From the NCBI RefSeq assembly GCF_965208475.1, contig NZ_OZ242338.1, positions 978,782-1,042,781 on the forward strand: 64,000 nucleotides of DNA, given 5' to 3'. Below, piece after piece: positions 12,425-28,773 of the stretch. The notes beneath the pieces were generated by a model. It made no database searches. It saw only the letters and a list, made by a program, of their open reading frames with translations, and was not told the origin of the DNA. Every line of letters begins with the position of its first letter. Position 1 is the stretch's first letter. Source of the DNA: Candidatus Poriferisocius sp. GTDB lineage: Bacteria; Actinomycetota; Acidimicrobiia; Acidimicrobiales; Bin134. The translations under genes were made by a program, and so were the position numbers.

Positions 12425-13570
12425 TCAGGTCTCAGCCAGCAGGTTTGCCATCAAGTGGTGGCCAGGCACTACCTCAGCCGAGGCTGCTCCCTGTTCGGTG
12501 TAGACGCCGCCGGGGCCGTTGACCCGCGAGTCCACCAGCAAGTAGGGAACTGGATCGCCGGTGTGGCCCCGCAATGTCAGTGGCGTGGCATGGTCGGGCA
12601 GCAGCAGCAACCGCCACGGACCAGTCTGGTCGAGGCCGTCTATCAGGCTGGCCAGTATGCGCCGATCCCAATTCTCCAGACACCTCACTTTCTCCGCCAC
12701 GTTGCCCTCGTGTCCGGCCTCGTCGCTGGCCTCCACATGGATCACATACAAGTCGGCCCCGGAGGCCAGCCCGGCCAGGGCCGCATCCCGCTTGCCCTCG
12801 TAGTTGGTGTCGTACCACGCGGTGGCCCCGGGGACGTCGGCCACCGTCATTCCGGTGAGCGCCCCGATCCCCCGCACCAAGTCCACCGCGCTGACCAGTC
12901 CGGCCTCCACGCCGTGCATTTCCCGAAATGAGGGCATCTTCGGCTGGAAACCCTGCCCCCACAGCCATATCCGGTTGGCCTTGAGCCCGAACTCGGACAC
13001 CACTGATCGAGAAGCCTCCTCCAGGGCGGCCAGCTTGGGGCCAGCCGGGCCTCGGGGGCCCACCACCATCTGATCGGAGAGATCGTGGGGCGGCGTACAA
13101 TCGGCGTCGGCCCAATCGGCGGGGGCGATCATGGTGTGGCGGTACTGAACGCCAGCGTGGAAGCTGACCTCGCCGCCCAACTCGGCATCCAAAGCGGCAA
13201 TCACCTCGCCAGCCTGCTCCGAGTCGGGATGTCCGCCGGAGAAGTCGGCCATGATCCCGTCGTCGGTCACGGTAACCAGATTGCATCGGTAGGCAACCTG
13301 ATCGGGAGTGAGGTCGAGACCTAGGGCTGCGGCCTCTATGGGTGAGCGCCCCGTGTGGTAGCGGGTGGGGTCATAGCCGAATATAGACATGTTCCCCACA
13401 TCGCTGCCTGCCGGCATCCCCGGAGGAATTACCTGGGCCAGCCCAACCTGTCCTCGGCTGGCCAGCGCATCCAAAACCGGGGTGTGGGCGGCTTCCAACG
13501 GGGTGGCCCCGCCTAGTTCGGGTACCGGCAAATCAGCACACCCATCAGGGATGCACACCACGTACTTCAC
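12425..13570 (-). CDS. ApgM-family (cofactor-independent phosphoglycerate-mutase-like) protein in the thrB position; proposed alternative homoserine kinase
   Basis: (V)KYVVCIPDGCADLP...TPLEAAHTPVLDALA N-terminus and a DEAGHEG metal-site motif of the alkaline-phosphatase/ApgM superfamily. GTG at 13570 gives the canonical N-terminus. The ORF is open to ATG at 13621. Confidence 0.75.
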   Translation of the reverse strand: MKYVVCIPDGCADLPVPELGGATPLEAAHTPVLDALASRGQVGLAQVIPPGMPAGSDVGNMSIFGYDPTRYHTGRSPIEAAALGLDLTPDQVAYRCNLVTVTDDGIMADFSGGHPDSEQAGEVIAALDAELGGEVSFHAGVQYRHTMIAPADWADADCTPPHDLSDQMVVGPRGPAGPKLAALEEASRSVVSEFGLKANRIWLWGQGFQPKMPSFREMHGVEAGLVSAVDLVRGIGALTGMTVADVPGATAWYDTNYEGKRDAALAGLASGADLYVIHVEASDEAGHEGNVAEKVRCLENWDRRILASLIDGLDQTGPWRLLLLPDHATPLTLRGHTGDPVPYLLVDSRVNGPGGVYTEQGAASAEVVPGHHLMANLLAET

Positions 13571-13671
13571 GAAAAACGACTCTCTCGCTTCAACCGACAG
13601 CGCCGGAGGCGGGACAAGCACACCACGTTCTTCACGACGCCCGATTCTGCCAGATCACCTTGGGCTTGGCG

Positions 13672-15072
13672 CTATCCGGCGCCACGACCCGAGCATCGGG
13701 CAACATGGGCCTTCACCGCCGCGAGGTCGTTGGCCAGGCGGGTGCAGCGCTCAGGGCGGTCGGCCAGTTCGGCCAGGGTTTGCGGCATTGGAGGCTTCAC
13801 CCCGATGGCCGCTTCCACCGCATCCCCGAACTTGGCCGGATGGGCGGTGGCCAGCACCACGATCGGGCCCTCTGAACTGGTCCGGCAGCGCCGCGCCGCG
13901 GTCAGGCCGACCGCGGTGTGGGGGTCGATGATCATGCCGGTGTCGCGGTAGAGCTCGGCGATGGTGGCGGTGGTCTCCCGGTCATCTACCCGGATCCCCG
14001 ACCAGCCCCGCTCGAGGTCGGCGGCGATGCGGGCGTCGATCCGCATCTCTCCGGTGGCCCGGAAGTCCTCTAGTTCTTGGGCGGTGCGAATCCCATCCCG
14101 GTCGAAGAGCTCAAACAGCAGGCGCTCGAGGTTGGACGACACCTGTATGTCCATGCTCGGCGATAACGTCGGGCGCACCTGGGAGATGGCCATCGACCCG
14201 GTGGTGAAGAACTGGGTCAAGATGTCGTTGCGGTTGCTGGCCACCATGAATCGGTCGATTGCCAGGCCCATCTGGCGGGCCACATGGCCAGCCAGCACAT
14301 TGCCGAAGTTGCCGGTGGGCACCGAGAACGACACCCGCTCCAGGCCGTATCGGGTTGCGGCCGCCACGTAGTACACGGTTTGGGCCATAACTCGGGCCCA
14401 GTTGATGGAGTTGACCGCCGACAGCCGCTGCTCGGCCCGAAAGGCGGCATCGGCGAACATGGCTTTCACCAGATCTTGGCAGTCGTCAAACGTCCCCTCG
14501 ATGGCCACGTTGTGGACGTTGGCACTGTCCACCGTGGTCATCTGCCGCCGCTGCACGTCCGAGACCCGCCCCTTGGGGTGCAGGATCACGACCTGGATGT
14601 TCTCCCGGTCGCGCACCGCCTCGATGGCCGCCGACCCGGTGTCGCCTGAAGTGGCGCCCACGATGGTCACCCTCTCACCTCTACGGGCCAGCTCCTCGTC
14701 GAACAGGCGCCCCACCAGTTGAAGGGCGATGTCCTTGAAAGCCAGCGTCGGGCCATGGAACAGCTCCATGAGCCACAGCCCGCGGCCCAGTTCCACCATC
14801 GGCACCACCTCGGGATGGGCGAACCCCGCGTAGGCGTCCCGCACCAACTTGTCGAAGCGGGCCCGGGGGTAGGCCCCGTCCACGAACGGCCACATCACCT
14901 CCGAGGCCAGATCGGAGTAGTCCCCTGTTCCAACGTTCCCGGTCAGCGCCTCGGGCGACAGCTCCGGCCAGTGGTCGGGCACATAGAGCCCGCCGTCCGC
15001 GGCCATCCCGGCCAACAGCACATCGCCGAAACCCAGAACCGGGGCCCGGCCCCGGGTGCTGATGTACTTCAC
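13672..15072 (-). CDS. thrC: Threonine synthase
   Basis: 466-aa ORF with FHGPTLAFKD (PLP lysine) and TSGDTGSA motifs. ATGA overlap with hom. Confidence 0.93.
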   Translation of the reverse strand: MKYISTRGRAPVLGFGDVLLAGMAADGGLYVPDHWPELSPEALTGNVGTGDYSDLASEVMWPFVDGAYPRARFDKLVRDAYAGFAHPEVVPMVELGRGLWLMELFHGPTLAFKDIALQLVGRLFDEELARRGERVTIVGATSGDTGSAAIEAVRDRENIQVVILHPKGRVSDVQRRQMTTVDSANVHNVAIEGTFDDCQDLVKAMFADAAFRAEQRLSAVNSINWARVMAQTVYYVAAATRYGLERVSFSVPTGNFGNVLAGHVARQMGLAIDRFMVASNRNDILTQFFTTGSMAISQVRPTLSPSMDIQVSSNLERLLFELFDRDGIRTAQELEDFRATGEMRIDARIAADLERGWSGIRVDDRETTATIAELYRDTGMIIDPHTAVGLTAARRCRTSSEGPIVVLATAHPAKFGDAVEAAIGVKPPMPQTLAELADRPERCTRLANDLAAVKAHVARCSGRGAG

Positions 15073-16415
15073 CGGCTGACGACTCGCAACAGCGCGGGCA
15101 CGCCCCGTACCGAATCCAGCTCTCGGAGATCGCCCAGGGTGGCCTGCACGTCCCGCTCGGCCGCCTCATGGGTGATGAACACCAGACGGGCCTGATCGCC
15201 CAGGCCCTCCTGCTCCATCGAGCGGATGCTCACCCCATGGCGGCCAAACACCCCGGCCACCGCGGCCAGCACGCCCGGCCGGTCCAAGACCTCCATGTTG
15301 ATGTAGAACTCCGACTCCAGATCGTCGATGGAGCAGATGACCGCCTCACCCCGATCGCCGATGGGCGTCCACGTGCCCCGACCCCAATTGCCGGCCGCGT
15401 CGATCAGGTCCCCCAGCACGGCGCTGGCTGTCGGCCGCCCGCCCGCGCCCCGCCCATACAGCATGAGCTCTCCCACCGCGTCGCCCTCTATGAAGACTGC
15501 ATTGAAGGAGTCCCGAACCGCGGCCAGCGGATGGTCGGCAGGCACCATCGCCGGGTGGACTCGAACCGCCAGTTCGGGCTGGCCGCCGATATGGCCCACC
15601 CGCTCGGCGATGGCCAAGAGCTTTATCGCGTAGCCCAGCCTTCGGGCGAAGGCGATGTCGGCAGGACCGACGCTGGAGATGCCTTCTCGGTAGACGCTGC
15701 CCGCCGGCACCCGAGCCCCGAAGGCCACAGTGGCGATGATGGAGGCCTTGGAGGCGGCGTCGAACCCCTCTACGTCGGCGGTCGGATCCTGCTCGGCGTA
15801 CCCCAGCGACTGAGCATCGGCCAGAGCGTCTTGGTAGCTGGTTCCGTGCTCGGTCATCTGGCTGAGGATGTAGTTGGTGGTGCCGTTGACAATGCCCATA
15901 ACCCGACGGACCGGCTCGGCCGCCAGCGACTCGCTCAGCGGGCGGATTAGGGGTATGCCCCCTCCGACTGCCGCCTCGAACAGCAGATCCACCTGGGCGG
16001 CGTCAGCGGCGGCAAACAGTTCGGCGCCGTAGTTGGCCAGCAGTTCTTTGTTCCCGGTAACCACAGGCTTGCCGAGCTCTAGGGCGTTCGACACCAGTTC
16101 GCGGGCCGGCTCGATCCCCCCGATCAACTCCACCACTATGTCCACTCTGGGGTCATTCACCACCGCGGCGGCATCAGCAGTCAGCACTCCATCGGCCAGA
16201 GCCACGGAGCGGTCGCGTGCCGCGTTGCGCACCGCCACCCGAACCACGTCCAGCTTCAATCCGGTGCGCTGGGCGATCGCCGTCTGCCGCTCTTGAAGCA
16301 GGGCAATCAACGCCGATCCCACGTTTCCACAGCCCAGAACGCCAACGCCGATTCGCTTTTGAGGGGAGTCGCTCACCATCCCCACCGTACCGGCTGGTGT
16401 CCGGCGGTCGGGCAA
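15069..16415 (-). CDS. hom: Homoserine dehydrogenase with C-terminal ACT domain
   Basis: GVLGCGNVGSA Rossmann motif, a central catalytic domain and a C-terminal ACT-like segment (DRPGVLAAVAGVFGRHGVSI). The start may be the internal ATG at 16379. Confidence 0.92.
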   Translation of the reverse strand: MPDRRTPAGTVGMVSDSPQKRIGVGVLGCGNVGSALIALLQERQTAIAQRTGLKLDVVRVAVRNAARDRSVALADGVLTADAAAVVNDPRVDIVVELIGGIEPARELVSNALELGKPVVTGNKELLANYGAELFAAADAAQVDLLFEAAVGGGIPLIRPLSESLAAEPVRRVMGIVNGTTNYILSQMTEHGTSYQDALADAQSLGYAEQDPTADVEGFDAASKASIIATVAFGARVPAGSVYREGISSVGPADIAFARRLGYAIKLLAIAERVGHIGGQPELAVRVHPAMVPADHPLAAVRDSFNAVFIEGDAVGELMLYGRGAGGRPTASAVLGDLIDAAGNWGRGTWTPIGDRGEAVICSIDDLESEFYINMEVLDRPGVLAAVAGVFGRHGVSIRSMEQEGLGDQARLVFITHEAAERDVQATLGDLRELDSVRGVPALLRVVSR

Positions 16416-16477
16416 GATTTCACTCGATTCTAAATCACTATTGCTTTTTGTGATATACGCTCTAGTTTAGACATTCT

Positions 16478-16840
16478 ATGATGTCTTACGAACTATTTTC
16501 ATTGGCCAGCGATCTCCGCCAACAGGCAGTGGCCTGCGAGCGGGTCCGGGGTGACGTAGATCGAATCTGGTATGGCCTCGACAACTTGCTCGACGGGCCG
16601 GTGGCCCGCCATGTCCCCCTCCTGTGGAAGTCTGCGGCCGCCGATGCCAGCCGGTTGCGCCTGCACAACCGGCGGACCCACTTGGCGCGGCTGCGCTACG
16701 AGATTGAGAACACGGCCAATCGTCTGCAAGCCCGAGCCGACGAACTCCATGCCGATGCAGCCCGCGTTGAGCACGCCGCTGAGGCGGCCCGCAGGGAGGA
16801 AGCTCGCGAGCTAGCACTCCAAGCTACTTATTTTCAATAA
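16478..16840 (+). CDS. Helical-hairpin protein, WXG100-like with WKS in place of WXG (putative Esx partner)
   Basis: 120 aa, all-helical by composition. LLWKSAAADASRL sits centrally where WxG is found. It lies directly upstream of a WXG100 gene and is flanked by AT-rich spacers. Confidence 0.5.
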   Translation: MMSYELFSLASDLRQQAVACERVRGDVDRIWYGLDNLLDGPVARHVPLLWKSAAADASRLRLHNRRTHLARLRYEIENTANRLQARADELHADAARVEHAAEAARREEARELALQATYFQ

Positions 16841-16924
16841 TCTTCTTGCTATTCCAGTGCAGTTAGATTATCAAAGAGGATAACTTGATCTGCCTGAGAG
16901 ATCACCCGAGAGAAAGGCCCTGCC

Positions 16925-17194
16925 ATGTCTGTTTTGACCATGAACACCGAGGAGATGGACCATCTCCAGCAGCAGCTCACTGCTTTTGCCGGCCAGGTGG
17001 AAGACCTCCGCACCCGCCTCACCGCCGCTTTGGAGGGAACCACTTGGACGGGTAGCCGCTCCGAGCGGTTCAGGGGAACGTGGCATGAGCAATGGTCGCC
17101 CTCGCTGGGGCAGTTGCAAGAGGCGCTCACCGAACTTGCCACCGCGGTGGGCCTCGAGCGCCAGAACACCGTCGCGGCCCTCGACTCGGTCTAG
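16925..17194 (+). CDS. WXG100 family type VII secretion substrate (EsxA-like)
   Basis: 89 aa with a central TWTGSRSERFRGTW (W-x-G), helix-turn-helix proportions, and a GAGAAAGG ribosome-binding site. Confidence 0.75.
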   Translation: MSVLTMNTEEMDHLQQQLTAFAGQVEDLRTRLTAALEGTTWTGSRSERFRGTWHEQWSPSLGQLQEALTELATAVGLERQNTVAALDSV

Positions 17195-17251
17195 CGGCGT
17201 CGTCCTCCTATGGTCTGAGCCACAGTCCCCGTTGCCTCTTCGGCCGAGCCC

Positions 17252-20200
17252 GTGCGCCTCTTCTACGACGGCCCGGATGGTGGTCGAGAGGTGGGCATCC
17301 AAGGCGAACTGCCTGCCACTGTGGGCGACTTGGCACAGATCCTGGGTTTGTCAGAGCCCGTCGACGGGCTCTGGATTGACGACCGATGGGCGGCCGCCGA
17401 ACGCCAACTCGAAGAAGCCGGGTTGGCCGACGGCGCCCGAGTGGGCTTGCGCTCGGGCCCGGGTCCCGACCCCCCGGGGAGGACACTGGAGGTGGTCGGG
17501 GGACTGTGCGCCGGCGACCGGCGTCTGTTGCCCGCCGAAGGGCTGAGCGTCGGCCGCTCCCCCGGCGCCGACCTGACCCTGCCGAGTGTCGGGCTCCGAC
17601 CGGAGCACGCCCGCTTGGTGTTCCACGACGGAATGGTCGTTGCCCAGTCGGGCGAGGACGAGCCGACTACGGTCGAAATCTCCACGCCGCTTCGGCAAGG
17701 CAGCGCTCTGATACAGGTGTCCGATGCCCCCGACGACCGTCCTGCCCACCTGGCCGGTATTGCGGGGCCCACCACTTGCGGGAAGATCGCCTTCAATCGT
17801 CCTCCCCGACCAGCACTACCGGTGCGGTCAGAACCGCTTCCTGCTCCCTCCCCAGAGCAGCGGCGATCGGCGCGAACCGTGGCATTCGGCTGGGCCGCGC
17901 TGGCTGGACCACTGCTGGTCGGACTGCTGATGGCCGTGCTCTACAGCCCCTACATGGCCTTGTTCGCCCTGTTGAGCCCCTTGATGATGGGGGCCACCTG
18001 GTTCGACAATCGCCGTCGCGATCGCCTCGACCGCCGCCGATCCCGCCGAAGGGCCCAAGCATCGCTCGCCGACTTTCAGAGCGCGGCCGAGGCGGCCCAC
18101 GCCGCTGAAATGCGCCGCAGACGCGATCTGCACCCCCACCTGGCCGAAGCAGTCAGGCGGATTCGCCAGCCCAGCGTTCGACTCTGGGAGCGGAGGCCTG
18201 ACCATGGCGATTTCATGTCGCTAGTGGCGGCCCACGGGTCTCGACCCTTCGCTCCCGACCTGGGCGGCGCCGATGCGGGGGACTTCGAGGAGGCGGCCGC
18301 GGTGATCGAACAGCTTGGGCCCCTGCTCGACGTGCCCATTTCCGTAGATTTAGGGCCGGGCAAGCTCCTCGGCTTGGTGGGTCCCCGCGGCGCAACCACG
18401 GCCATGGCCCGTGGACTGCTGCTCCAGGCAGCCGCCTGTCACGGACCGGCCGACCTGGCGGTTCTGATTGCCGCCGACGAGGTGACCGCGCCGGCTTGGG
18501 CGTGGACCGCCTGGCTCCCTCACACCGTCCACCGGGCCATAGGCCGACCTCATTTGCTGGCCGATTGCCGTGTCGCGGCGGCAGAGATCGCGGCTGAGCT
18601 AGCCCAAGCCTGGGGTCGGAGGGAAGAGGTCCACTGGCCGCAGCTGCTGGTGGTGGTCGACGGAGAGAACTTGGCTACCGGCAGGACGCCGCCGCTTCGT
18701 CCCCTGCTCCAAGGCTTGGCCGGGCCGACCTCGGCAATCGTGCTGGCTTCCAGTGTCGACCAACTCCCAGCCACTGCCACTGCGGTTGTCGAGGCCCGCG
18801 ACACGACTGGCGCTGTCGATGTGTCCGAAGCCGGGGAGACCTTCGGTTCCGTGCTTGCCACCGGCATGAGCTTGGGACTGGCTCGAGCCACGGCCCGCGG
18901 CCTGGCCCGCTATGAGGATCCCGAACAGCCTGGCACTGGTTCGGGTATTCCCGACCGATCATCGCTGTTCGACCTTCTCGGCCTTCCCGTCCTCGACAGT
19001 CCCGCGGGCATTGCGGACCTGCCGTCGCTGGGCGAAGTCGTCGCCGCCCGTTGGCGGCAAACCCAGCACGCCGACAGCTTGGCCTCCCCCATCGGCGCCG
19101 ACGGCCACGGCCCGCTGTTTGCCGACTTGGCCGCCGACGGCCCCCACGCGCTGGTGGGAGGCACCACCGGGTCGGGCAAGAGCGAGCTGCTGCGCACGCT
19201 GGTGGCTTCTCTGGCCTCCACCTGCTCTCCCGAGCAGGTCAACTTCGTGCTGATCGATTACAAGGGAGGCAGCGCATTCGACGCCTGCGCTTCGTTGCCC
19301 CATGTGGTCGGATTGGTCACTGATCTAGATGACCGGCTGGCCGAGCGGGCCCTGCGCTGTCTGGAAGCCGAGCTCCGCCATCGGGAGCAAGTTCTGCGAG
19401 AACGGGGGGCCACCGACTTGAGCCACTATCGGTCGCTGGCCCAGACCGAGGGCGGATCCCGGGGGGCACCGCTGGCCCGGTTGGTGGTAATCATCGACGA
19501 GTTCGCCGCCTTGGTCAACGAGCTGCCCGGCTTCATGGACGCCCTGGTGAATGTGGCCCAACGGGGCCGCAGCCTGGGCATGCACTTGGTGTTGGCCACC
19601 CAGCGACCCGCGGGGGCCGTCAATGCCAACATCCGCACCAACACCGCTCTGCGCATTGCCTTGCGAGTCCTCGACGCCGCCGACTCGGTCGACGTGCTCG
19701 ACAGCCCAGAGGCCGCCACCATCGGCCGGCACCGGCCCGGCCGAGCGTACGCCCGATTCGGCCCTGGCGAGTTGGTTGAGTTCCAGTGCGCCCTGGTCAC
19801 CGGGGTCACTGCCGCCCAGCGAGGTCCCAGGGTCGTCCCCGCCCCCGACGGCATGCCTGAATCCGAGCCGGAGGCCGCTACCGACGATGAGAGTCCTGAC
19901 GACCTGTCCCGGCTGGCCCTTGCGGTGAACACCGCCTGGGACTGCTGGGAAGGTGTCCCACCCCGCCAACCTTGGCCCGACCCCCTGCCGTCGAATGTCT
20001 CGCTCGATGAGCTGACTGCTGACGGCATATCGGTCGCCGGAGTGGCGCTTGCACTGGCCGACGACCCAAACCGGCAGTGCCAGTATCCCCTGACGTGGGA
20101 TCCCACCGAAGGCAATGCCTTGTTCGTGGGCATCCCGGGCAGCGGAACAACAACGGCATTGGGTTCGTTGGCCCTGGCCCTGGCCCGCCGCTACCCGCCC

Positions 20201-21427
20201 GGCGAGTTCCACCTGTACGCCTTGGATTCCGGTACCGGGCAACTGGCCCCGCTGGAGGGTCTGCCCCATTGCGGCGCGGTAGTGAGTCCTGATGAGCGCG
20301 ACCGAATTCGGCGGCTCATCCGACGGTTGGAAGACGAGCTCGACCAGCGGATGGGCCAGGGTCGGACATCCCAGGAGTCCAGCCGCCCGCTCGTGGTGGC
20401 TTTGATCGACAACTGGGGCGGCTTGGCCAAGAGCCTGGACAACGTGTCCGACCTCGCTTTGCTGACTGCGCTGGAGCGGGTGTGGTCTGAGGGTCCCGCC
20501 GTTGGCCTGTATCTGGCCGCGGCCGCCGACCAGCTGTCCAAGGTGAATCGGGCTATCCAGGCGGCCACCCCCCAGACCTTCGTGTTCCGCCTGGGCGATC
20601 CCGCGCTGTACCGCCAGTGGGGTGTGACCGTGGAAGACCCGGCCACGCTTCCGCCCGGCCGGGGTTTCACCATCCCATCGGGCATCGAGTTCCAAGTGGC
20701 GGTGCCTGAAGGCGGTCTGGCCCGCGCCGTTGTCGAAGTGGCTGCCGAACACCCCCGGACTCACGGCCCGCCGCCGGTTGAGACTCTGTCCGCGGTGGTC
20801 GACCCAGCCCGCTTGGACCCAGCCTGCCTGAAGGGTTCCCCGGCGTATCTACCGCTGGGGCTGAGCGACGACTCCCTGACCCCGGTTGGGCTCACCCTCT
20901 ACCCCAGCGAGCATGCCCTGATCTTGGGACCTGCTCGCTCGGGCCGGTCCTCGGCTCTAGCTCTGTTGGCAGCGTTGGCAGCTGACGGCGGCGGGCAGGT
21001 AGTCGCCTTGGCCAACCAGGAACCGCCGCTGGCCGACAGCCCCAATGTCAATCTTGTGACCGACGTCGGTGAGCTGCTCGCCGCCGTACACGCAGCCGAG
21101 CCCCCAACCCTGGTGCTGATCGACGACGCCGAGACGGTGGGCGACCCCGACGGCGCCCTGAAAGCACTGGCCTCCGATAGCCGCCCCAGCCTGCACATCG
21201 TGGCCGCCGGCCGTGCCGACCGACTCCGCACCGCCTACGGCCACTGGACCGCCGAGATCCGCTTCTCCCGCACCGGAGTCCTGCTGCAACCCACCCCCCT
21301 CGACGGCGACCTGTTCACCATCCAACTCCCCACTCGCCCCACCCTCCCGTCACTACCCGGCCGCGGCTACCTCATCCAAAACGGCCAACCCTCGATCATC
21401 CAGCTCGCAAAGCACAAGGCAACTTGA
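17252..21427 (+). CDS. EssC/EccC-type FtsK/SpoIIIE type VII secretion ATPase with an FHA-like N-terminal region
   Basis: 1391 aa. FHA-like VGRSPGADLTLPSVGLRPEHARLVF; two TM helices (~aa 205-250); three P-loops (GGTTGSGKSELL, GIPGSGTTTAL, GPARSGRSSAL) with Walker B VVIIDEF, VVALIDNW and LVLIDDAE. Confidence 0.88.
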   Translation: MRLFYDGPDGGREVGIQGELPATVGDLAQILGLSEPVDGLWIDDRWAAAERQLEEAGLADGARVGLRSGPGPDPPGRTLEVVGGLCAGDRRLLPAEGLSVGRSPGADLTLPSVGLRPEHARLVFHDGMVVAQSGEDEPTTVEISTPLRQGSALIQVSDAPDDRPAHLAGIAGPTTCGKIAFNRPPRPALPVRSEPLPAPSPEQRRSARTVAFGWAALAGPLLVGLLMAVLYSPYMALFALLSPLMMGATWFDNRRRDRLDRRRSRRRAQASLADFQSAAEAAHAAEMRRRRDLHPHLAEAVRRIRQPSVRLWERRPDHGDFMSLVAAHGSRPFAPDLGGADAGDFEEAAAVIEQLGPLLDVPISVDLGPGKLLGLVGPRGATTAMARGLLLQAAACHGPADLAVLIAADEVTAPAWAWTAWLPHTVHRAIGRPHLLADCRVAAAEIAAELAQAWGRREEVHWPQLLVVVDGENLATGRTPPLRPLLQGLAGPTSAIVLASSVDQLPATATAVVEARDTTGAVDVSEAGETFGSVLATGMSLGLARATARGLARYEDPEQPGTGSGIPDRSSLFDLLGLPVLDSPAGIADLPSLGEVVAARWRQTQHADSLASPIGADGHGPLFADLAADGPHALVGGTTGSGKSELLRTLVASLASTCSPEQVNFVLIDYKGGSAFDACASLPHVVGLVTDLDDRLAERALRCLEAELRHREQVLRERGATDLSHYRSLAQTEGGSRGAPLARLVVIIDEFAALVNELPGFMDALVNVAQRGRSLGMHLVLATQRPAGAVNANIRTNTALRIALRVLDAADSVDVLDSPEAATIGRHRPGRAYARFGPGELVEFQCALVTGVTAAQRGPRVVPAPDGMPESEPEAATDDESPDDLSRLALAVNTAWDCWEGVPPRQPWPDPLPSNVSLDELTADGISVAGVALALADDPNRQCQYPLTWDPTEGNALFVGIPGSGTTTALGSLALALARRYPPGEFHLYALDSGTGQLAPLEGLPHCGAVVSPDERDRIRRLIRRLEDELDQRMGQGRTSQESSRPLVVALIDNWGGLAKSLDNVSDLALLTALERVWSEGPAVGLYLAAAADQLSKVNRAIQAATPQTFVFRLGDPALYRQWGVTVEDPATLPPGRGFTIPSGIEFQVAVPEGGLARAVVEVAAEHPRTHGPPPVETLSAVVDPARLDPACLKGSPAYLPLGLSDDSLTPVGLTLYPSEHALILGPARSGRSSALALLAALAADGGGQVVALANQEPPLADSPNVNLVTDVGELLAAVHAAEPPTLVLIDDAETVGDPDGALKALASDSRPSLHIVAAGRADRLRTAYGHWTAEIRFSRTGVLLQPTPLDGDLFTIQLPTRPTLPSLPGRGYLIQNGQPSIIQLAKHKAT

Positions 21428-21521
21428 TGCCACCACCAATTCGCTTTCGATCACTCAAAGCCGAAGAGCTGCGGTCGATATTGTGAACAACATCTACTCC
21501 CCCGAAAGCGAGGAATCCCCG

Positions 21522-21746
21522 ATGAGGGAAGTGAGGGTCTTCTTCAACTCTGAAGAGGGTGCCGACTGGTGGTGCGAAGATGACGGTGACTTCATGGCGG
21601 TCGCTGATACCCCCGTACAACTTATGGAGTTGATCAGGACGTGGCAAACCAGCCAGGGTATTGCCGACGTGCAACTTATTCCGATGGGCGTAGCCTCAGA
21701 CGTCGTTGCGGAGGAGGTCTTGGTGGGTCTCGCGGCGGACCACTAG
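21522..21746 (+). CDS. Small hypothetical protein, HicB/DUF1902-like by pattern
   Basis: ATG at 21522 preceded by GAGGAA. The 74-aa product MREVRVFFNSEEGADWWCEDDGDFMAVADTPVQLMELIRTW resembles the DUF1902 pattern. The last 51 nt overlap the convergent lysA 3' end. Confidence 0.4.
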   Translation: MREVRVFFNSEEGADWWCEDDGDFMAVADTPVQLMELIRTWQTSQGIADVQLIPMGVASDVVAEEVLVGLAADH

Positions 21747-22964
21747 GCGGGCGTCGCCGTTGCGGGCGAACACCACGGCGGGGCGGAGGATTTTGTTGTA
21801 GTTGGAGCCCATGGAGTGGCCGTAGGCACCGGTCACCGGGGTGGCGAGGATGTCGCCCACCGCGGTATCGCTGGGCACTCGGCCGTCGCGCACCAACAGG
21901 TCGCCCGACTCGCAGTGCTTGCCCACCACCCGCACCGCCTTGTTGCGGTCGCGGTCGGCCGCCCGGGGCAGAAACGTCTCATAGCCGCTGCCATAGAGCA
22001 CCGGGCGGGGGTTGTCGCTCATGCCGCCGTCAACAGAGATGTAGGTGCGGATGCCGGGCAGTTCCTTGATCGTTCCCACCTCATAAAGCGTGACCGCAGC
22101 AGCGGCCACCAGAGCCCGGCCCGGCTCCACGCTCACCGGGGCGGTGAATCCGCCCGACGAGCAGGCTTCGTCGATGGCCGCAGCCCACTGGGCGATGGTG
22201 GGGGCCGACTCCCCCTCCACGTAGGCTACCCCCAACCCACCGCCCAGCGACAGCTCAGGCAGTCCGTAGGGGCGGGCAAACCCGGCGATCACCTCCACCG
22301 CCCGCTGGAAAGAGCGCAGCTCGAACACCTGGCTGCCGATGTGGGCGTGCAGGCCCACGAGCTCCACCGAGTCAGCTTCCGCGGCTCGGCGGATGGCGGC
22401 GTCGGCCAGCCCGGTGGATGCGGTGAAGCCGAACTTGGTGTCGTCCACCCCGGTGGTGACGTACTCGTGGGTGTGGGCTTCCACCCCCGGAGTGACTCTC
22501 AGCAGCACCTTGGGCCGGGCGCCGGTGGTGGCGTGGAGCACGTCAAGGCGGTCGAGCTCGTCGAACGAATCCACCACGATTCGGCCCACTCCGGCCTCGA
22601 CCGCGGCGGCTAGCTCATCGGCCGACTTGTTGTTGCCGTGCATCACCAAACGGTCGCCGGGCAATCCCGCGGCCTTGGCTACGAATAGCTCCCCGCCGGT
22701 GGCCACATCCAGGTCGAGCTCCTCCTCGTGAATCAGACGCGCCATGGCCAGGCACAAGAACGCCTTGGAGGCATAGGCCACCGATCCGGCGAAGGCCGCC
22801 TTGGCTTGGCGGCACCGCGCCCGCACGTGGTCTTCGTCGTACACGAACAGCGGCGTGCCGTACTGCTCGGCCAGCTCCAGCGCATCGCACCCGGCGATGG
22901 ACAGTCGCCCGCCGTCGCCCACTGCGGAGTTGTCGGGCAGAAGGTGCGGGGGAAGCGCCGACAT
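21696..22964 (-). CDS. lysA: Diaminopimelate decarboxylase
   Basis: 422 aa with YASKAF (PLP lysine), HIGSQ, ELSLGGGLGV and CESGD motifs. Confidence 0.95.
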   Translation of the reverse strand: MSALPPHLLPDNSAVGDGGRLSIAGCDALELAEQYGTPLFVYDEDHVRARCRQAKAAFAGSVAYASKAFLCLAMARLIHEEELDLDVATGGELFVAKAAGLPGDRLVMHGNNKSADELAAAVEAGVGRIVVDSFDELDRLDVLHATTGARPKVLLRVTPGVEAHTHEYVTTGVDDTKFGFTASTGLADAAIRRAAEADSVELVGLHAHIGSQVFELRSFQRAVEVIAGFARPYGLPELSLGGGLGVAYVEGESAPTIAQWAAAIDEACSSGGFTAPVSVEPGRALVAAAAVTLYEVGTIKELPGIRTYISVDGGMSDNPRPVLYGSGYETFLPRAADRDRNKAVRVVGKHCESGDLLVRDGRVPSDTAVGDILATPVTGAYGHSMGSNYNKILRPAVVFARNGDARLVVRRETHQDLLRNDV

Positions 22965-24647: not shown

Positions 24648-24720
24648 GCCCACGTAGCTCAGGGGATAGAGCACTTGCCTCCGGAGCAAGGGGCCGCAGG
24701 TTCGAATCCTGCCGTGGGCG
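24648..24720 (+). tRNA. tRNA-Arg (anticodon CCG)
   Basis: Manual cloverleaf: acceptor GCCCACG/CGTGGGC, D arm GCTC/GAGC, anticodon stem CTTGC/GCAAG with loop CUCCGGA, T arm GCAGG-TTCGAAT-CCTGC, discriminator G. 73 nt, no encoded CCA. Confidence 0.9.
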
Positions 24721-24723
24721 CTT
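24700..24723 (+). repeat. attL core (tRNA-Arg 3' end)
   Basis: Identical 24-mer repeated at 30852-30875. Confidence 0.85.
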
Positions 24724-24871
24724 CCGGGTGTTCTCAGTAGTTGCTCGATGGTCCCAGATGGTCCTTGTTTTCCCAGCGTAGCGACCGTTTCTGTCAGTTT
24801 GGGGTGGTAGGCTGTCCTCAGCAATTACCGGGCTACCCCCGAAAAAGTGGGGGATGGATTGGGGGATGGGA

Positions 24872-26024
24872 ATGTCGCTTTTGACCGCTGTGGAAGTCAA
24901 AAATGCCGGTGTGGGAAAGCACCATGAAGGGCGCGGATTATTTTTGCGGGTGTACAAATCGGGGTCCAGGTGCTGGGTTCTACGCCTGACGGTGGACGGG
25001 CGCCGCCGCGAGATCGGCTTGGGCGGCTGGCCCGCGGTGAGCCTGGCCGACGCCCGCCGCAAAGCCCATGAGCACCACGCGGCCGCCGCCGACGGGCGCG
25101 ACCCGCTCGCCGACAGGCGCCGCTGCGACGTGCCGACATTCCGCGAGGCGGCGAGGGTGGTATGGGAGGCGAACAGGGCCCGGTGGTGCAACGAGCGGAC
25201 CGCGGTGCTGTGGTGGGCGTCGCTGGAAAACCACGCCTTTCCGGCCATCGGCGACATGGCCGTGAACCGCATCACCCAGTCCGACGTCTTGGGATGTGTG
25301 GAGCCGATCTGGACGAACCGCACTGAAGCGGCCCGCAAGGTCCGCCAGAGGATCCGCACCGTGCTTCGCTGGTGCCAGGCCCACGGCTACGTCACCGTGA
25401 ACTCGGCCGGCGAGGCCATCGACGGCGCACTGCCGCCCATGCCCCGCGTAAAGGCCCACTTCCGCTCCCTGCCCTATGGCGAGGTGGCCGACGCGCTCGG
25501 CGTTGCGGACCGCACCGGCGCGTCTGCGTCGGCCAAGCTGTGCCTGAGGTTCACGGTGTTGACGGCGGCCCGCTCCGGCGAGGCCCGCAACGCCTCATGG
25601 TCCGAGATCGACTTCGCCGCCCGCGAGTGGCGCATCCCCGCCGACAAGATGAAGGCCGCGACCGAGCACCGGGTGCCCCTCAGCGACGCCGCCCTCAAAG
25701 TTCTCGACGAGGCCAAGGACAACCACGACGGCTCCGATCTGGTGTTCCCGTCCCCCCCTCAGGCCAGGCCGCCCCCTCAGCGACATGACGCTCACGAAAA
25801 TCCTTCGCGACGCAGACCTGGCGGAGCGGGCCACCGTCCACGGATTCAGAGCCAGCTTCCGCACTTGGGCGCTGGAGCAGACCGACACCCCCTGGGCTGT
25901 GTGCGAGGCCGCACTCGCACACAGCCTCGGCGACTCAACCCAACAGGCCTACATCCGAGGCGATGCCTACGCCAAACGCCGCAAGCTCATGGACCGGTGG
26001 GCCGACTACCTGCAGCGGCCATAG
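24872..26024 (+). pseudogene. int: P4-type tyrosine integrase, frameshifted in a C7 run
   Basis: The N-terminal part (MSLLTAVEVKNAGVGKHHEGRGLFLRVYKSGSRCWVLR...) reads through to LVFPSP. The catalytic C-terminus (HGFRASFRTWA...ALAHSLGDSTQQAYIRGD) continues in another frame (ORF 25785-26024). The frames meet at the ccccccc run at 25752-25758. Confidence 0.8.
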
Positions 26025-26177
26025 AAGGGCCCCGGCTGGCTGACCGCCCCAGTGGCGGCGGGAGGAGCTCCGTCGAGCCACGCGGCCGGGGCTCGGGCAA
26101 TTGCGGGCGGGGGCCTAGTGGCCCTTCGCAGGGCGGGTTTCGGGGTTGTCGACTGGCGGCAGCCGCGTTGGCGGTGC

Positions 26178-26654
26178 TCAGTCGCCGATCGCGAGTATGT
26201 CGGCGCCGTCGGCGGGGTCCGTGCCCAGGGCCTGTGGCCAGTACATGTAGCACACCCCGGTCGGAGTGAATGCCACGGCCTGCTCGACTTTGATGCCGTT
26301 GCAGTTCCCCGGCCTGATTCGGGCGAAGCCGGTGCCGTCGAGCCCGGTTGTGACTACGAGCATGTCGTCGGAGAACTGATCCAAGATCGCCCTGAGCCGG
26401 CCGATAGTCAACGCCGGCCCCCACGAGGCGTCGACGCCCGCTTGGAGGCCGACCCTGTTCTCGTCTACGAAATCTCCGCTCAAACACCGACAGCCTCCCA
26501 GCCGCCGAAGCAACGACCGATTGAAACCGCCCACAGGAAATCCGACAGCCCGATCCAAGACAGCCCAACTCACTGGGCACCATCCAAAACCCGCTGTTGC
26601 CAATGCGCCCCACCGCTCACCGATGAAGACCGGCGAGTGAGGCCGTTGTGCCAC
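26178..26654 (-). CDS. Hypothetical protein (island cargo)
   Basis: Only the last ~155 codons of the 377-aa ORF look protein-like (FIGERWGALATAGFGW...TIGRLRAILDQFSDDMLVVTTGLDG...). GTG at 26654 is a possible start. No family recognised. Confidence 0.3.
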   Translation of the reverse strand: MAQRPHSPVFIGERWGALATAGFGWCPVSWAVLDRAVGFPVGGFNRSLLRRLGGCRCLSGDFVDENRVGLQAGVDASWGPALTIGRLRAILDQFSDDMLVVTTGLDGTGFARIRPGNCNGIKVEQAVAFTPTGVCYMYWPQALGTDPADGADILAIGD

Positions 26655-28583: not shown

Positions 28584-28639
28584 ACCCCCATGCGGCGAAA
28601 CTGTCTCAAATCCTTGACGCGGGACACAAGATCTTCAAT

Positions 28640-28673
28640 GTCAAAAGGCGACATAGACTTGTCACCTTTTGAC
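28640..28673. promoter_or_regulatory. 14-bp inverted repeat (gtcaaaaggcgaca / tgtcaccttttgac, 13 of 14 matched) with a 6-nt spacer
   Basis: Seen directly, 100 nt upstream of the protease start. Could be an operator or an RNA hairpin. Confidence 0.35.
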
Positions 28674-28773
28674 GGCCATATTGTCTACATCTTCTTAACC
28701 GAGACGTTATGGTCAACCATGGCTCGCAGATGCGGGAGTGCCTGCCAAGCATGAAGAATGACGGGATCCTTGA

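What the first reader, a model, noticed from the sequence alone, without database searches (positions are those of the whole stretch)
16416..21746. Stripped-down type VII secretion cassette inserted into the lysA-hom housekeeping junction
lysA and hom are neighbours in the conserved actinobacterial argS-lysA-hom-thrC order. Here they are separated by a 5.3-kb cassette on the opposite strand. Its spacers (16416-16477 and 16841-16924) are strikingly AT-rich for this genome. The cassette encodes a 120-aa helical protein with WKS at the WXG position, an 89-aa WXG100 protein (TWTGS), a 1391-aa EssC/EccC-type triple-P-loop ATPase, and a 74-aa ORF. No EccB/EccD/EccE/MycP (ESX) or EsaA/EssA/EssB (firmicute) genes accompany it within the cassette. 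So it is either a truly minimal secretion machine, or it depends on unlinked components, or it does something else, such as DNA or effector translocation.
Basis: partly seen in the sequence, partly recalled or inferred. Interest (0 to 1): 0.75.

Follow-up and report, generated by a model that had tools for sequence, protein, structure and literature searches.

The report
Old three-gene type VII secretion module
Between two amino-acid biosynthesis genes, this sponge-associated actinobacterium carries a small, old and well-conserved protein-export module: one motor ATPase and two small helical proteins, with none of the usual accessory membrane parts nearby. This makes it a natural candidate for asking how few parts a type VII secretion system needs.

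Summary
On the + strand between hom (15069-16415, -) and lysA (21696-22964, -) lie four ORFs:
- a 120-aa helical protein
- an 89-aa WXG100 protein (Pfam PF06013, above its cutoff)
- a 1391-aa EssC/EccC-type ATPase
- a 74-aa ORF

The two spacers are the most AT-rich stretches of the 64-kb window.

1. The 74-aa ORF is not part of the system. It is the HicB-like half of a decayed hicAB toxin-antitoxin pair.
2. The cassette is not a recent insertion. All 25 species representatives of the 'Candidatus Poriferisocius' clade carry the trio beside hom. Homologous trios also sit beside hom in more distant Acidimicrobiia, where the ATPase is only 45% identical. Many other Acidimicrobiales have lysA abutting hom.
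3. The ATPase is a fusion: ubiquitin-like domain, FHA domain, two membrane helices, then the ATPase domains. In this clade the FHA domain has lost its phosphothreonine-binding Ser and Asn.

All three genes are under purifying selection. I found no other known T7SS component in the window or in any syntenic locus.

Best reading: a vertically inherited, minimal T7SS variant, nearest to the T7SSb and T7SSd types. Whether unlinked partners exist could not be tested.

The parts
16380..16477 (.). Divergent promoter region between hom and the 120-aa gene. It is the most AT-rich stretch of the window.
   Evidence: GC is 0.32 for 16416-16477. A -35-like TTGCTT and a -10-like TAGTTT/TATTTT lie 9-12 nt upstream of the ATG and are conserved in 11 species. 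Promoter-like hits on the - strand point towards hom. Promoter function is inferred. The true hom start is probably at MVSDS (about 16379), because homologues align only from residues 8-14 onwards.
16478..16840 (+). p120: a 120-aa WXG100-like helical hairpin carrying the motif H45..W50-x-S52..A55..S58-R59. It is a lineage-restricted family with no Pfam model. Candidate partner, co-substrate or targeting factor.
   Evidence: - No Pfam or NCBIfam hit.
- 52 clusters, all in the Poriferisocius clade.
- A profile search of 1.8 billion representatives gave only 16 hits. The remote 112-144-aa members keep the H..TW.S..A..SR motif.
- dN/dS is 0.07-0.32.
- AF2 model with pLDDT 89: helix 3-39, a loop containing W50, helix 53-119.
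- 28 of the 30 best Foldseek matches are WXG100 proteins (EsxA 3zbh, E 0.025, TM 0.6/0.8), but none reaches E <= 0.001.
- hhalign against the WXG100 alignment is not significant.
16841..16924 (+). AT-rich spacer upstream of the WXG100 gene, probably a second promoter. In 17 related species a 443-aa Amidohydro_2 gene occupies this position.
   Evidence: GC is 0.46, with a 62-nt minimum of 0.29 at 16828. Read directly from the sequence: TTGCTA, 17 nt, TATCAA, and further downstream a purine-rich stretch before the ATG; promoter function is inferred. Amidohydrolase inserts.
16925..17194 (+). 89-aa WXG100 protein (an EsxA/TsxA equivalent) with W41-T-G43.
   Evidence: - PF06013 at E 4.8e-8, above the cutoff. 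TIGR03930 scores 36 bits, below its 44.85 cutoff.
- W, G, F49, R50 and W53 are invariant across 17 sequences.
- A profile hits solved firmicute EsxA/EsxB structures (3zbh at 4.9e-5, 2vs0).
- dN/dS is 0.05-0.10, and identity is 83-96% across the clade.
- NCBI names orthologues 'WXG100 family type VII secretion target'.
17252..17455 (+). ATPase residues 1-68: a ubiquitin-like beta-grasp domain, equivalent to EsaB/YukD/TsxB but fused to the ATPase.
   Evidence: - The AF2 model shows a beta-beta-alpha-beta-beta...beta topology, pLDDT about 90.
- A profile of this domain hits SAMP2 (4hrs, E 0.0016), designed ubiquitins, and the EccD1 ubiquitin-like domain (E 0.33).
- Family members hit Pfam SAMP2 (1e-7), YukD (0.0057), ubiquitin and ThiS.
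- The window's own sequence hits none of these on its own.
17483..17722 (+). ATPase residues about 78-157: an FHA-fold domain, degenerate in this clade.
   Evidence: - The Pfam FHA hit is weak (E 0.04).
- The AF2 model matches FHA domains of OdhI and GarA (E 2.4e-5, TM about 0.73).
- In the family alignment, the conserved TVS-xx-H serine is replaced and a 12-residue deletion removes the S-x-N-G-T motif in all Poriferisocius-clade sequences. Relatives at 45% identity or less keep both.
17876..18037 (+). ATPase residues about 209-262: two predicted transmembrane helices.
   Evidence: The hydropathy scan flags about 209-244; the second helix, to about 262, is read from the sequence and from alignment to EccC3/EccC5.
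18038..21427 (+). Cytoplasmic motor: a D0-like region followed by three P-loop domains.
- D1: Walker A GGTTGSGKS at aa 637, Walker B VVIIDEF at aa 745.
- D2: GIPGSGTTT and ALIDN.
- D3: GPARSGRSS and LIDDAE.

Only D1 has canonical catalytic motifs.
   Evidence: - Motif scan.
- FtsK_SpoIIIE at 4e-53; EssC, EccCa and EccCb models.
- Best solved relatives: T. curvata EccC 4nh0 (3e-86), EccC5 7np7, B. subtilis YukB 9qks.
- dN/dS is 0.24-0.26 overall and 0.14-0.16 for D1.
21427..21483 (+). Remnant of hicA: only the first 19 codons remain. Not part of the secretion module.
   Evidence: tblastn with the L001 HicA (PF07927) matches only residues 1-19 here. A 186-nt gap relative to L001 lies inside a tract that is otherwise 99% identical.
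21522..21746 (+). The 74-aa ORF: an orphan HicB-like antitoxin gene. Not part of the secretion module.
   Evidence: - It is 97% identical to the gene directly downstream of hicA in L001.
- In the loci screened it is complete only in L001, L014, L020 and L022 and partial in L026; most cassettes lack it.
- Its antitoxin role is inferred from its position only. It has no Pfam or NCBIfam hit.

Best explanation
This is a vertically inherited, functional, minimal variant of the type VII (WXG100) secretion system.

**Parts.** One polypeptide combines three of the parts that are nearly universal in T7SS:
- a ubiquitin-like domain, equivalent to EsaB/YukD
- an FHA domain
- the membrane-anchored multi-domain EssC/EccC ATPase

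Two small helical-hairpin proteins are encoded upstream: a true WXG100 protein, and a clade-specific W-x-S hairpin (p120).

**Inferred mechanism.**
1. The ATPase forms hexamers in the single membrane of this monoderm actinobacterium. Its paired membrane helices line the channel, as the EccC helices do in solved ESX complexes.
2. The WXG100 protein docks on the degenerate, non-catalytic D2/D3 domains. It does so either as a homodimer, like firmicute EsxA, or paired with p120.
3. ATP hydrolysis at the one canonical site, D1, drives export.

The two AT-rich spacers are promoters, the first shared divergently with hom.

In this clade the FHA domain has lost its phosphothreonine-binding residues, and no kinase gene is linked. 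Relatives with an intact FHA domain do have kinase genes beside the ATPase. The kinase-dependent control seen there appears to have been dropped here.

**Shown:** gene content, domain architecture, motif state, conservation, synteny and purifying selection.
**Inferred:** secretion itself, oligomeric state, which proteins are exported, and whether unlinked membrane partners are needed.
For: **Defining pair in one cluster.** A WXG100 protein (PF06013 above cutoff) lies beside an EssC/EccC-type ATPase with two membrane helices and several P-loop domains. Garrett et al. 2024 (PMC11217815) list the ATPase, the WXG100 protein and a ubiquitin-like protein as the nearly universal components.

**N-terminal domains.** The ubiquitin-like and FHA domains are supported by the AF2 model, Foldseek, and profile hits.

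**p120.** It is a confident helical hairpin whose best structural matches are almost all WXG100 proteins.

**Purifying selection on all three genes.** dN/dS is 0.05-0.10 for WXG100, 0.07-0.32 for p120 and about 0.25 for the ATPase (0.15 for D1). For comparison, hom and lysA give 0.12.

**Conservation.**
- The trio is present in 25 of 25 Poriferisocius-clade species representatives.
- It also sits beside hom in L003, L088, L085, L089 and L091, with ATPase identity down to 45%.
- Only these three genes are constant. The amidohydrolase, hicAB and a 687-aa gene come and go.

**Loss of kinase control.** The FHA phosphothreonine-binding Ser and Asn are lost only in the clade without a linked kinase. 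Kinase genes lie beside the ATPase in L004, L086 and L041.

**Promoters.** Promoter-like motifs are conserved in the AT-rich spacer.
Against: - No experiment or expression data are available.
- In every T7SS studied, further membrane proteins are needed: EccB/D/E and MycP, or EsaA/EssA/EssB. None is in the 64-kb window, and I could not scan the rest of the 3.9-Mb genome.
- D2 and D3 lack the Walker A lysine, and the FHA domain is degenerate. Both could be read as decay.
- p120 has no significant sequence similarity to WXG100, and its Foldseek E-values are weak (0.025 at best).
- p120 is separated from the WXG100 gene by a promoter-like spacer, and in 17 species by a whole gene. A heterodimer is therefore not implied by operon structure.
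- The WXG100 C-terminus does not strictly fit the published HxxxD/ExxhxxxH pattern.
- The ATPase scores below the NCBIfam cutoffs for EssC, EccCa and EccCb.
Confidence: 0.62

Rival explanations
1. The three genes are only the visible core. The working machine needs additional membrane proteins encoded elsewhere in the genome, such as an EssB- or TsdD-like kinase or pseudokinase, or an EsaA- or TsdI-like envelope-spanning protein. On this reading it is an ordinary multi-component T7SS with a split gene arrangement.
For: - All characterised T7SS need extra membrane components (Garrett et al. 2024).
- Relatives of the ATPase at 38-44% identity have membrane-anchored Ser/Thr kinase genes directly adjacent: L004 (427 aa with one membrane helix), L086 (603 aa), and a kinase fragment in L041.
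- The ATPase keeps an FHA-fold domain that could still bind a protein partner. T7SSb EssC does this with the EssB pseudokinase without using phosphothreonine.
Against: - No such gene is linked in about 30 independent syntenic loci spanning ATPase identities from 45% to 84%.
- The FHA phosphothreonine-binding residues are lost exactly in this clade.
- Nothing of the kind is present in the 64-kb window.
- Absence from the rest of the genome was not tested.
Confidence: 0.4
2. The cassette is a decaying relic of a fuller ancestral T7SS and no longer secretes anything.
For: - The FHA domain is degenerate.
- D2 and D3 lack the canonical Walker A lysine.
- The adjacent hicAB pair is visibly decaying.
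- L085 carries an extra 687-aa gene inside the cassette, and Microthrixaceae carry a conserved 610-aa gene beside theirs. Either could be a lost component.
Against: - All three genes are intact in every locus examined in which they lie fully within the contig, and they are under purifying selection. The WXG100 protein is one of the most conserved proteins in the region, at 83-96% identity and dN/dS 0.05-0.10.
- The D1 catalytic motifs are canonical.
- Degenerate D2/D3 sites are usual in EssC-type ATPases (established knowledge, not tested here).
- The 687-aa gene is present in only one lineage. L089 and L091 have the bare trio.
Confidence: 0.1
3. It is a recently acquired mobile island inserted into the lysA-hom junction.
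For: - The cassette interrupts an otherwise common argS-lysA-hom-thrC order.
- It lies on the opposite strand.
- It has AT-rich borders.
- The junction is variable across Acidimicrobiales: 22 loci carry inserts of 0.8-8.5 kb (one of them, L042, an EssC-like cassette).
Against: - It is present in 25 of 25 species of the clade and beside hom in deeper lineages.
- GC3 is 0.78-0.81, like its neighbours.
- There are no flanking direct or inverted repeats, and no integrase or tRNA at the borders.
- In a distance tree, the Poriferisocius ATPases and the L003, P0057 and P0059 ATPases form one group, consistent with descent within the lineage (a neighbour-joining tree without support values).
Confidence: 0.03
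4. The ATPase is a DNA or other non-T7 translocase of the FtsK/TraB type, and the small proteins are unrelated.
For: The FtsK_SpoIIIE domain is shared with DNA pumps, and there are weak hits to FtsK, TraB and TrwB models.
Against: - The EssC and EccC models score 290-445 bits, against 72 for FtsK and 22 for TraB.
- The layout of three tandem P-loop domains plus a D0-like region aligns along EccC and YukB structures.
- The ATPase is constantly linked to a WXG100 gene across all lineages.
Confidence: 0.03

Closest known systems
T7SSd of Actinomycetota such as Olsenella and Bifidobacterium (Garrett, Higginson and Palmer 2024, PMC11217815)
   Same: - Same phylum.
- An ATPase with an N-terminal FHA domain.
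- A single WXG100 gene.
- Few components.
- More distant relatives of this ATPase (L004, L086) have a membrane-anchored Ser/Thr kinase gene beside it, like TsdD.
   Different: - T7SSd has TsdD (a kinase), TsdH and the large TsdI. None is present here.
- T7SSd keeps the FHA phosphothreonine-binding site. This clade has lost it.
- T7SSd is reported to lack any ubiquitin-like component. This ATPase carries one fused at its N-terminus.
- An extra W-x-S hairpin gene is present here.
- I did not compare this ATPase directly with TsdC sequences.
T7SSb of Bacillota (S. aureus Ess, B. subtilis Yuk)
   Same: - The ATPase has an FHA domain, two membrane helices and degenerate distal ATPase sites.
- The WXG100 protein is most similar to the homodimeric firmicute EsxA/EsxB (3zbh, 2vs0, 4j42).
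- A ubiquitin-like module (EsaB/YukD) belongs to the system.
- The EssC FHA domains also lack phosphothreonine-binding residues.
   Different: - No EsaA, EssA or EssB genes.
- One FHA domain rather than two.
- The ubiquitin-like module is fused rather than free-standing.
- The EssC equivalog model is not reached (444 of 778 bits).
- No LXG or other toxin genes in the locus.
T7SSa / ESX of Mycobacteriales and Streptomyces
   Same: Same phylum. The best solved sequence relative of the motor is T. curvata EccC (4nh0, 3e-86). A ubiquitin-like domain is part of the machine; in ESX it sits on EccD.
   Different: - No EccB, EccD, EccE or MycP.
- The ATPase has FHA and ubiquitin-like domains that EccC lacks.
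- There is no bicistronic CFP-10/ESAT-6 pair.
- The EccCa and EccCb models are not reached.
The generic pairing of a WXG100 gene with an FtsK/SpoIIIE ATPase gene. This pairing defined the system originally (Pallen 2002, from memory; restated in PMC4010439 and PMC3935865).
   Same: This is exactly that pairing, and little else.
   Different: Here the bare pairing is shown to be stable over long evolutionary time at one chromosomal site. It also comes with a fused ubiquitin-like domain and a dedicated third hairpin protein.

Membership tests
Type VII secretion system (any subtype) | A membrane-bound EccC/EssC-type FtsK/SpoIIIE ATPase with several NTPase domains | tested here: met
   FtsK_SpoIIIE at 4e-53. 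EssC, EccCa and EccCb models score 292-445 bits. Two membrane helices and three P-loops plus a D0-like region. Aligns to EccC 4nh0, EccC5 and YukB.
Type VII secretion system (any subtype) | A WXG100-family protein encoded in the same cluster | tested here: met
   PF06013 scores 33.6 bits against a 27.3 cutoff. W-x-G is invariant. The profile hits solved EsxA structures.
Type VII secretion system (any subtype) | A ubiquitin-like EsaB/YukD/TsxB component (nearly universal) | tested here: met
   Present as a fused N-terminal domain. Support: AF2 beta-grasp topology; profile hits to SAMP2 (E 0.0016) and the EccD1 ubiquitin-like domain (E 0.33); family members hit Pfam SAMP2 (1e-7) and YukD (0.0057). 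Support is moderate, because the window's own sequence alone gives no hit.
Type VII secretion system (any subtype) | Actual export of the WXG100 protein | not testable with these tools
   Needs experiment.
T7SSa (ESX) | EccB, EccD, EccE and MycP genes in the locus | tested here: not met
   None in the cassette, the 64-kb window or the syntenic loci. The rest of the genome was not scanned.
T7SSa (ESX) | The NCBIfam EccCa and EccCb equivalog cutoffs | tested here: not met
   357 of 509.15 bits and 292 of 346.55 bits.
T7SSb (Ess/Yuk) | EsaA, EssA and EssB genes in the locus | tested here: not met
   No such Pfam hits in the window or the syntenic loci.
T7SSb (Ess/Yuk) | The EssC equivalog model TIGR03928 | tested here: not met
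   444.5 bits against a cutoff of 778.4. The match covers residues 244-1154 only.
T7SSd | A TsdD membrane Ser/Thr kinase, TsdH and TsdI encoded with the ATPase | tested here: not met
   No Pkinase hit among the window ORFs scanned, and none in the Poriferisocius-type loci. Kinase genes appear only beside distant relatives (L004, L086, L041).
T7SSd | An FHA domain with a conserved phosphothreonine-binding site | tested here: not met
   The FHA fold is retained. The conserved Ser is replaced and the S-x-N-G-T segment is deleted in this clade.
T7SSd | The ATPase groups phylogenetically with TsdC | not tested
WXG100 (PF06013), for the 120-aa protein | Sequence match to the family model and a W-x-G loop | tested here: not met
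   No Pfam or NCBIfam hit. hhalign probability is 0.3%. The loop motif is W-x-S, and the serine is invariant.
WXG100 (PF06013), for the 120-aa protein | A helix-turn-helix hairpin of about 100 residues with the aromatic residue in the loop | tested here: met
   AF2 pLDDT is 89, with W50 in the loop. 28 of the top 30 Foldseek hits are WXG100 proteins, at weak E-values of 0.025-0.4.
HicAB toxin-antitoxin, for the 74-aa ORF | Encoded directly downstream of a HicA toxin gene | tested here: met
   In L001, L020 and L022 the orthologue follows an 81-aa HicA gene (PF07927). The window keeps only 19 hicA codons. A HicB fold or family hit was not obtained.

The most novel reading that the evidence does not exclude
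The three genes make a self-sufficient secretion machine. A single fusion protein (ubiquitin-like domain, FHA domain, EssC motor) forms the whole membrane translocon without any EssB-, EccB/D- or TsdD-type partner, and it exports a WXG100 protein together with a clade-specific W-x-S hairpin. This would be the smallest natural T7SS. Held at one chromosomal site beside hom across a wide span of Acidimicrobiia, it would also define a subtype outside the published T7SSa-j scheme.
Probability: 0.25. Interest if true: 0.75.

Novelty: new variant of a known kind. Interest (0 to 1): 0.45.

Why it matters
T7SS research still lacks a clear answer on which parts are needed for translocation itself. Every studied system carries several lineage-specific membrane proteins whose roles are debated.

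Here is a natural three-gene module that keeps only the universal parts: the ATPase, a ubiquitin-like module and a WXG100 protein. It has stayed intact and under selection across many species, which makes it a compact test case. Express three genes, ask whether the hairpins are exported, and mutate one Walker site.

It also:
- extends the catalogue of T7SS variants to Acidimicrobiia, including abundant sponge symbionts where secretion systems may shape host association
- shows that the ubiquitin-like component can be fused to the ATPase
- shows loss of the FHA phosphothreonine site in the clade that lacks a linked kinase gene

If unlinked components turn out to exist, the finding reduces to a split-locus T7SS of modest interest.

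Tried and rejected
**Sequence link between p120 and WXG100.** hhalign of the two family alignments was not significant. A PDB profile search gave only coiled-coil noise. A profile search of 1.8 billion representatives found only 16 relatives, none with a Pfam domain.

**Mobile-element signatures.** No flanking repeats, no tRNA or integrase at the cassette borders, and no Rfam element in the spacers.

**The 74-aa ORF as a secretion component.** Rejected. It is the partner of a HicA gene in relatives, and most cassettes lack it.

**The antisense ORF 16499-16774 as the real gene.** My GC3-based gene caller preferred it. Rejected because pN > pS and relatives have stop codons in it.

**The extra genes seen in relatives as lost core components.** These are the 443-aa amidohydrolase, the 687-aa gene of L085, and the 610-aa gene of Microthrixaceae.
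- They share no similarity with each other.
- None is constant across lineages.
- None has a T7SS-related Pfam hit.
- They are left as variable passengers or possible cargo.

**The published WXG100 C-terminal pattern HxxxD/ExxhxxxH.** Not strictly present in the 89-aa protein.

**Literature.** 'Poriferisocius' occurs in one study (held as a preprint and its journal version), which is not about this. A search combining type VII secretion with sponge symbionts and Acidimicrobiia found nothing.

It was rebuilt from database hits.
- One context look-up (P0120, Streptomyces) was not on record.
- I could not scan the rest of the genome for unlinked T7SS genes.
- I could not model the WXG100-p120 pair.

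Full report
**1. What is there**

The + strand between hom and lysA carries four ORFs at the stated coordinates:
- 16478-16840, 120 aa
- 16925-17194, 89 aa
- 17252-21427, 1391 aa
- 21522-21746, 74 aa

The flanking - strand genes are an apgM-like metalloenzyme, thrC, hom, lysA and argS.

The 89-aa product is a WXG100 protein: PF06013 at E 4.8e-8, 33.6 bits against a 27.3-bit cutoff.

The 1391-aa product is an FtsK/SpoIIIE-family ATPase (4e-53). It matches the EssC, EccCa and EccCb models at 292-445 bits. That is far above FtsK (72 bits) or TraB (22 bits), but below each equivalog cutoff.

The two spacers have GC 0.32 and 0.46 in a 0.658-GC window. They are the two most AT-rich stretches in 64 kb.

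The 120-aa frame is the coding one. Its dN/dS is 0.07-0.32 against seven orthologues. The overlapping antisense ORF has pN > pS and stop codons in relatives.

**2. The organism and the age of the arrangement**

The ATPase has 60-84% identical orthologues in 'Candidatus Poriferisocius' and other Acidimicrobiia genomes from metagenomes. It also has a large family of about 42% identical FHA-containing relatives in Acidimicrobiia, Chloroflexota, Streptomyces and Actinoplanes.

I scanned one genome per species with hom and screened the 80 best loci:

| State of the junction | Loci |
|---|---|
| Trio present upstream of hom; these are all the loci with hom at 80% identity or more, and lysA follows wherever the contig reaches that far | 25 |
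| A different EssC-like ATPase between lysA and hom (L037, L041 and L042 from Microthrixaceae, plus L045) | 4 |
| lysA within 200 bp of hom | 19 |
| Other inserts of 0.8-8 kb | 21 |
| Undetermined | 11 |

Context look-ups added deeper cases.
- L003 and L088 (ATPase 50-52% identical) keep the trio divergent from hom, although lysA has moved away.
- L089 and L091 (ATPase about 45% identical, with a clear FHA domain) have hom facing a 133/134-aa gene, an 88-aa gene and the ATPase.
- L085 has hom, then a 140-aa, a 687-aa and an 88-aa gene, the ATPase, and then lysA and argS.
- The 140-aa protein of L085 is 37% identical to p120 and keeps the W-x-S motif. Its 88-aa protein is 43% identical to the WXG100 protein.

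GC3 of the cassette (0.78-0.81) matches its neighbours. No repeats, tRNA or integrase mark its borders.

So the cassette does interrupt the common argS-lysA-hom-thrC order. But it is an old, fixed resident of this lineage, not a recent insertion. Whether there was one ancient gain followed by losses, or several gains, is not settled. My neighbour-joining tree has no support values.

**3. The fourth ORF is something else**

In L001 the ATPase is followed by an 81-aa HicA toxin gene (PF07927) and an 87-aa gene that is 97% identical to the window's 74-aa ORF.

tblastn shows that the window keeps only the first 19 hicA codons (21427-21483), running straight into the hicB-like gene. Relative to L001 this is a clean 186-nt deletion inside a tract that is 99% identical.

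Most cassettes have no hic genes at all. The 74-aa ORF is therefore an orphan antitoxin-like gene, and not a secretion component.

**4. Anatomy of the ATPase**

- **Residues 1-66.** AF2, using 37 family sequences (mean pLDDT 81, about 90 in the folded domains), gives a beta-beta-alpha-beta-beta...beta unit.
  - A profile of this segment hits the ubiquitin-like SAMP2 (E 0.0016), designed ubiquitins, and the ubiquitin-like domain of EccD1 (E 0.33).
  - Family members hit Pfam SAMP2 (1e-7), YukD (0.0057), ubiquitin and ThiS.
  - I read this as a fused EsaB/YukD-type module.
- **Residues 78-157.** AF2 gives a beta-sandwich whose best matches are the FHA domains of OdhI and GarA (E 2.4e-5).
  - Relatives at 45% identity or less carry the canonical G-R ... 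T-V-S-x-x-H ... S-x-N-G-T motifs.
  - Every Poriferisocius-clade sequence has the serine replaced and a 12-residue deletion that removes S-x-N-G-T.
- **Residues about 209-262.** Two hydrophobic helices.
- **The motor.** It aligns along T. curvata EccC (3e-86), EccC5 and B. subtilis YukB.
  - D1 has canonical motifs: GGTTGSGKS and VVIIDEF.
  - D2 (GIPGSGTTT, ALIDN) and D3 (GPARSGRSS, LIDDAE) do not.
- **Selection.** dN/dS is about 0.25 overall and about 0.15 for D1.

**5. The small proteins**

*The WXG100 protein.*
- It is 83-96% identical across the clade, with dN/dS 0.05-0.10.
- W41, G43, F49, R50 and W53 are invariant, even against the Microthrixaceae and L004 homologues.
- Its profile matches the homodimeric firmicute EsxA/EsxB structures best.

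*p120.*
- It is restricted to this lineage: 52 clusters, and only 16 representatives in 1.8 billion. The remote 112-144-aa members share the H..TW.S..A..SR motif and have no Pfam domain.
- AF2 models it with confidence (pLDDT 89) as a hairpin: helix 3-39, a loop holding W50, and helix 53-119.
- Twenty-eight of the thirty best Foldseek matches are WXG100 proteins, but at E 0.025-0.4.
- Profile comparison with WXG100 is not significant.
- It works like a WXG100 hairpin. By sequence criteria it is not a member of PF06013.
- In 17 species a 443-aa Amidohydro_2 gene lies between p120 and the WXG100 gene. The two hairpin genes are therefore not an obligate bicistron.

**6. The rest of the window and the wider family**

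Pfam scans of essentially all ORFs of 100 aa or more in the window found only housekeeping and island genes. There is no EccB/D/E, MycP, EsaA, EssA or EssB, and no protein kinase.

Among distant relatives with an intact FHA domain, membrane-anchored Ser/Thr kinase genes sit next to the ATPase in L004 and L086, and a fragment does so in L041. RHS-repeat genes flank the Actinoplanes locus.

This matches the picture in Garrett, Higginson and Palmer 2024 (PMC11217815).
- All T7SS share the ATPase, a WXG100 protein and, almost always, a ubiquitin-like protein.
- Kinases, phosphatases and FHA proteins are frequent extras.
- The actinobacterial T7SSd has an FHA-bearing ATPase, a kinase (TsdD), TsdH and TsdI, and no ubiquitin-like part.

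**7. Interpretation**

The module keeps exactly the universal parts, two of them fused into one protein, plus one lineage-specific hairpin.

The best-supported mechanism is ATP-driven export of the hairpin proteins through a hexamer of the fusion ATPase. D1 would act as the engine, and D2/D3 as docking or regulatory sites.

The clade has lost both the linked kinase gene and the phosphothreonine-binding residues of the FHA domain. This suggests that an ancestral phospho-regulated system was simplified.

The AT-rich spacers carry conserved -35-like and -10-like elements close to the start codons, and promoter-like sites facing hom. I take them to be promoters.

Secretion itself, the oligomeric state, the identity of the exported species, and independence from unlinked genes are all inferences. 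The main open rival is that membrane partners are encoded elsewhere, and I could not test that.

**8. Novelty and score**

The WXG100-ATPase pairing is the textbook core of T7SS, and NCBI already names the small protein as a type VII target. The kind is therefore known.

What is new:
- the composition: a fusion of ubiquitin-like domain, FHA domain and EssC motor, a W-x-S hairpin family, and no other linked part
- its stability beside hom across a wide span of Acidimicrobiia
- the loss of the FHA phosphothreonine site in the clade that has no linked kinase gene

It meets none of the tested locus-level criteria for T7SSa, T7SSb or T7SSd. I class it as a new variant of a known kind, with interest 0.45. 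The score would rise sharply if the three genes prove self-sufficient.

Noticed in passing
window 19660-21870, compared with L001 12400-14800: Identity to the closest relative (L001) is mosaic. It is 65-81% across p120 and the 5' half of the ATPase gene (16366-19060). It jumps to 96-99% across D2, D3, the hic region and the 3' end of lysA (pS 0.03-0.04 against about 0.5). This looks like a recent recombination tract with a breakpoint inside the ATPase gene, reminiscent of the modular 3' variation of essC in firmicutes.
   Followed up: partly
window 21427-21746: The hicAB module is decayed. A clean 186-nt deletion removed hicA codons 20-81 and left an orphan hicB-like ORF. That ORF overlaps the lysA stop region by 51 nt on the opposite strand.
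   Followed up: yes
L005 8191-9522, and the same position in 16 other loci (L006-L012, L014, L015, L017-L021, L024, L027): A 443-aa Amidohydro_2 gene (83-89% identical among species) sits on the cassette strand between p120 and the WXG100 gene in 17 Poriferisocius-clade species. It is absent from the window. Whether it is a passenger or cargo is unknown.
   Followed up: partly
L085 7421-9484; L037 6159-7991; L041 4986-6815; L042 6262-8091; L045 8356-9882: Other Acidimicrobiales carry large genes with no Pfam domain inside or beside their EssC-like cassettes at the same lysA-hom junction. L085 has a 687-aa gene between the p120-like and WXG100 genes. Microthrixaceae have a conserved gene of about 610 aa divergent from the WXG100 gene. 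L045 has a 508-aa hydrophobic protein. They are unrelated to each other and could be substrates or unrecognised machine parts.
   Followed up: partly
window 24648-26269, and on to about 31000: A tRNA-Arg(CCG) gene lies directly after argS. It is followed by a tyrosine integrase (Arm-DNA-bind_3, Phage_int_M and Phage_integrase domains), a HEPN/nucleotidyltransferase gene and small ORFs, and includes the only other very AT-rich spot of the window (28637-28698). This is probably an integrated island. L002 lacks it.
   Followed up: partly
window 12425-13621, and the same position in L001-L003, L085, L089 and L091: A cofactor-independent phosphoglycerate-mutase-like gene (PhosphMutase and Metalloenzyme domains) follows hom-thrC, where thrB usually lies. 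It may be a non-canonical homoserine kinase. The block rho-L31-prfA-prmC-sua5 lies beyond it.
   Followed up: no
L004 8737-10020 and 15721-20530; L086 7872-9683; L041 351-878: Relatives of the ATPase that have an intact FHA domain are flanked by membrane-anchored Ser/Thr kinase genes. In Actinoplanes they are also flanked by RHS-repeat toxin-like genes. This fits phospho-regulated T7SS variants with RHS cargo.
   Followed up: partly
the hom upstream region in all trio-bearing loci (window 16380-16477): The secretion trio has stayed head-to-head with hom even where lysA has moved away (L003, L088). The two share a bidirectional promoter region of about 100 bp. I have no explanation for this persistent pairing with a threonine and methionine pathway gene.
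   Followed up: no
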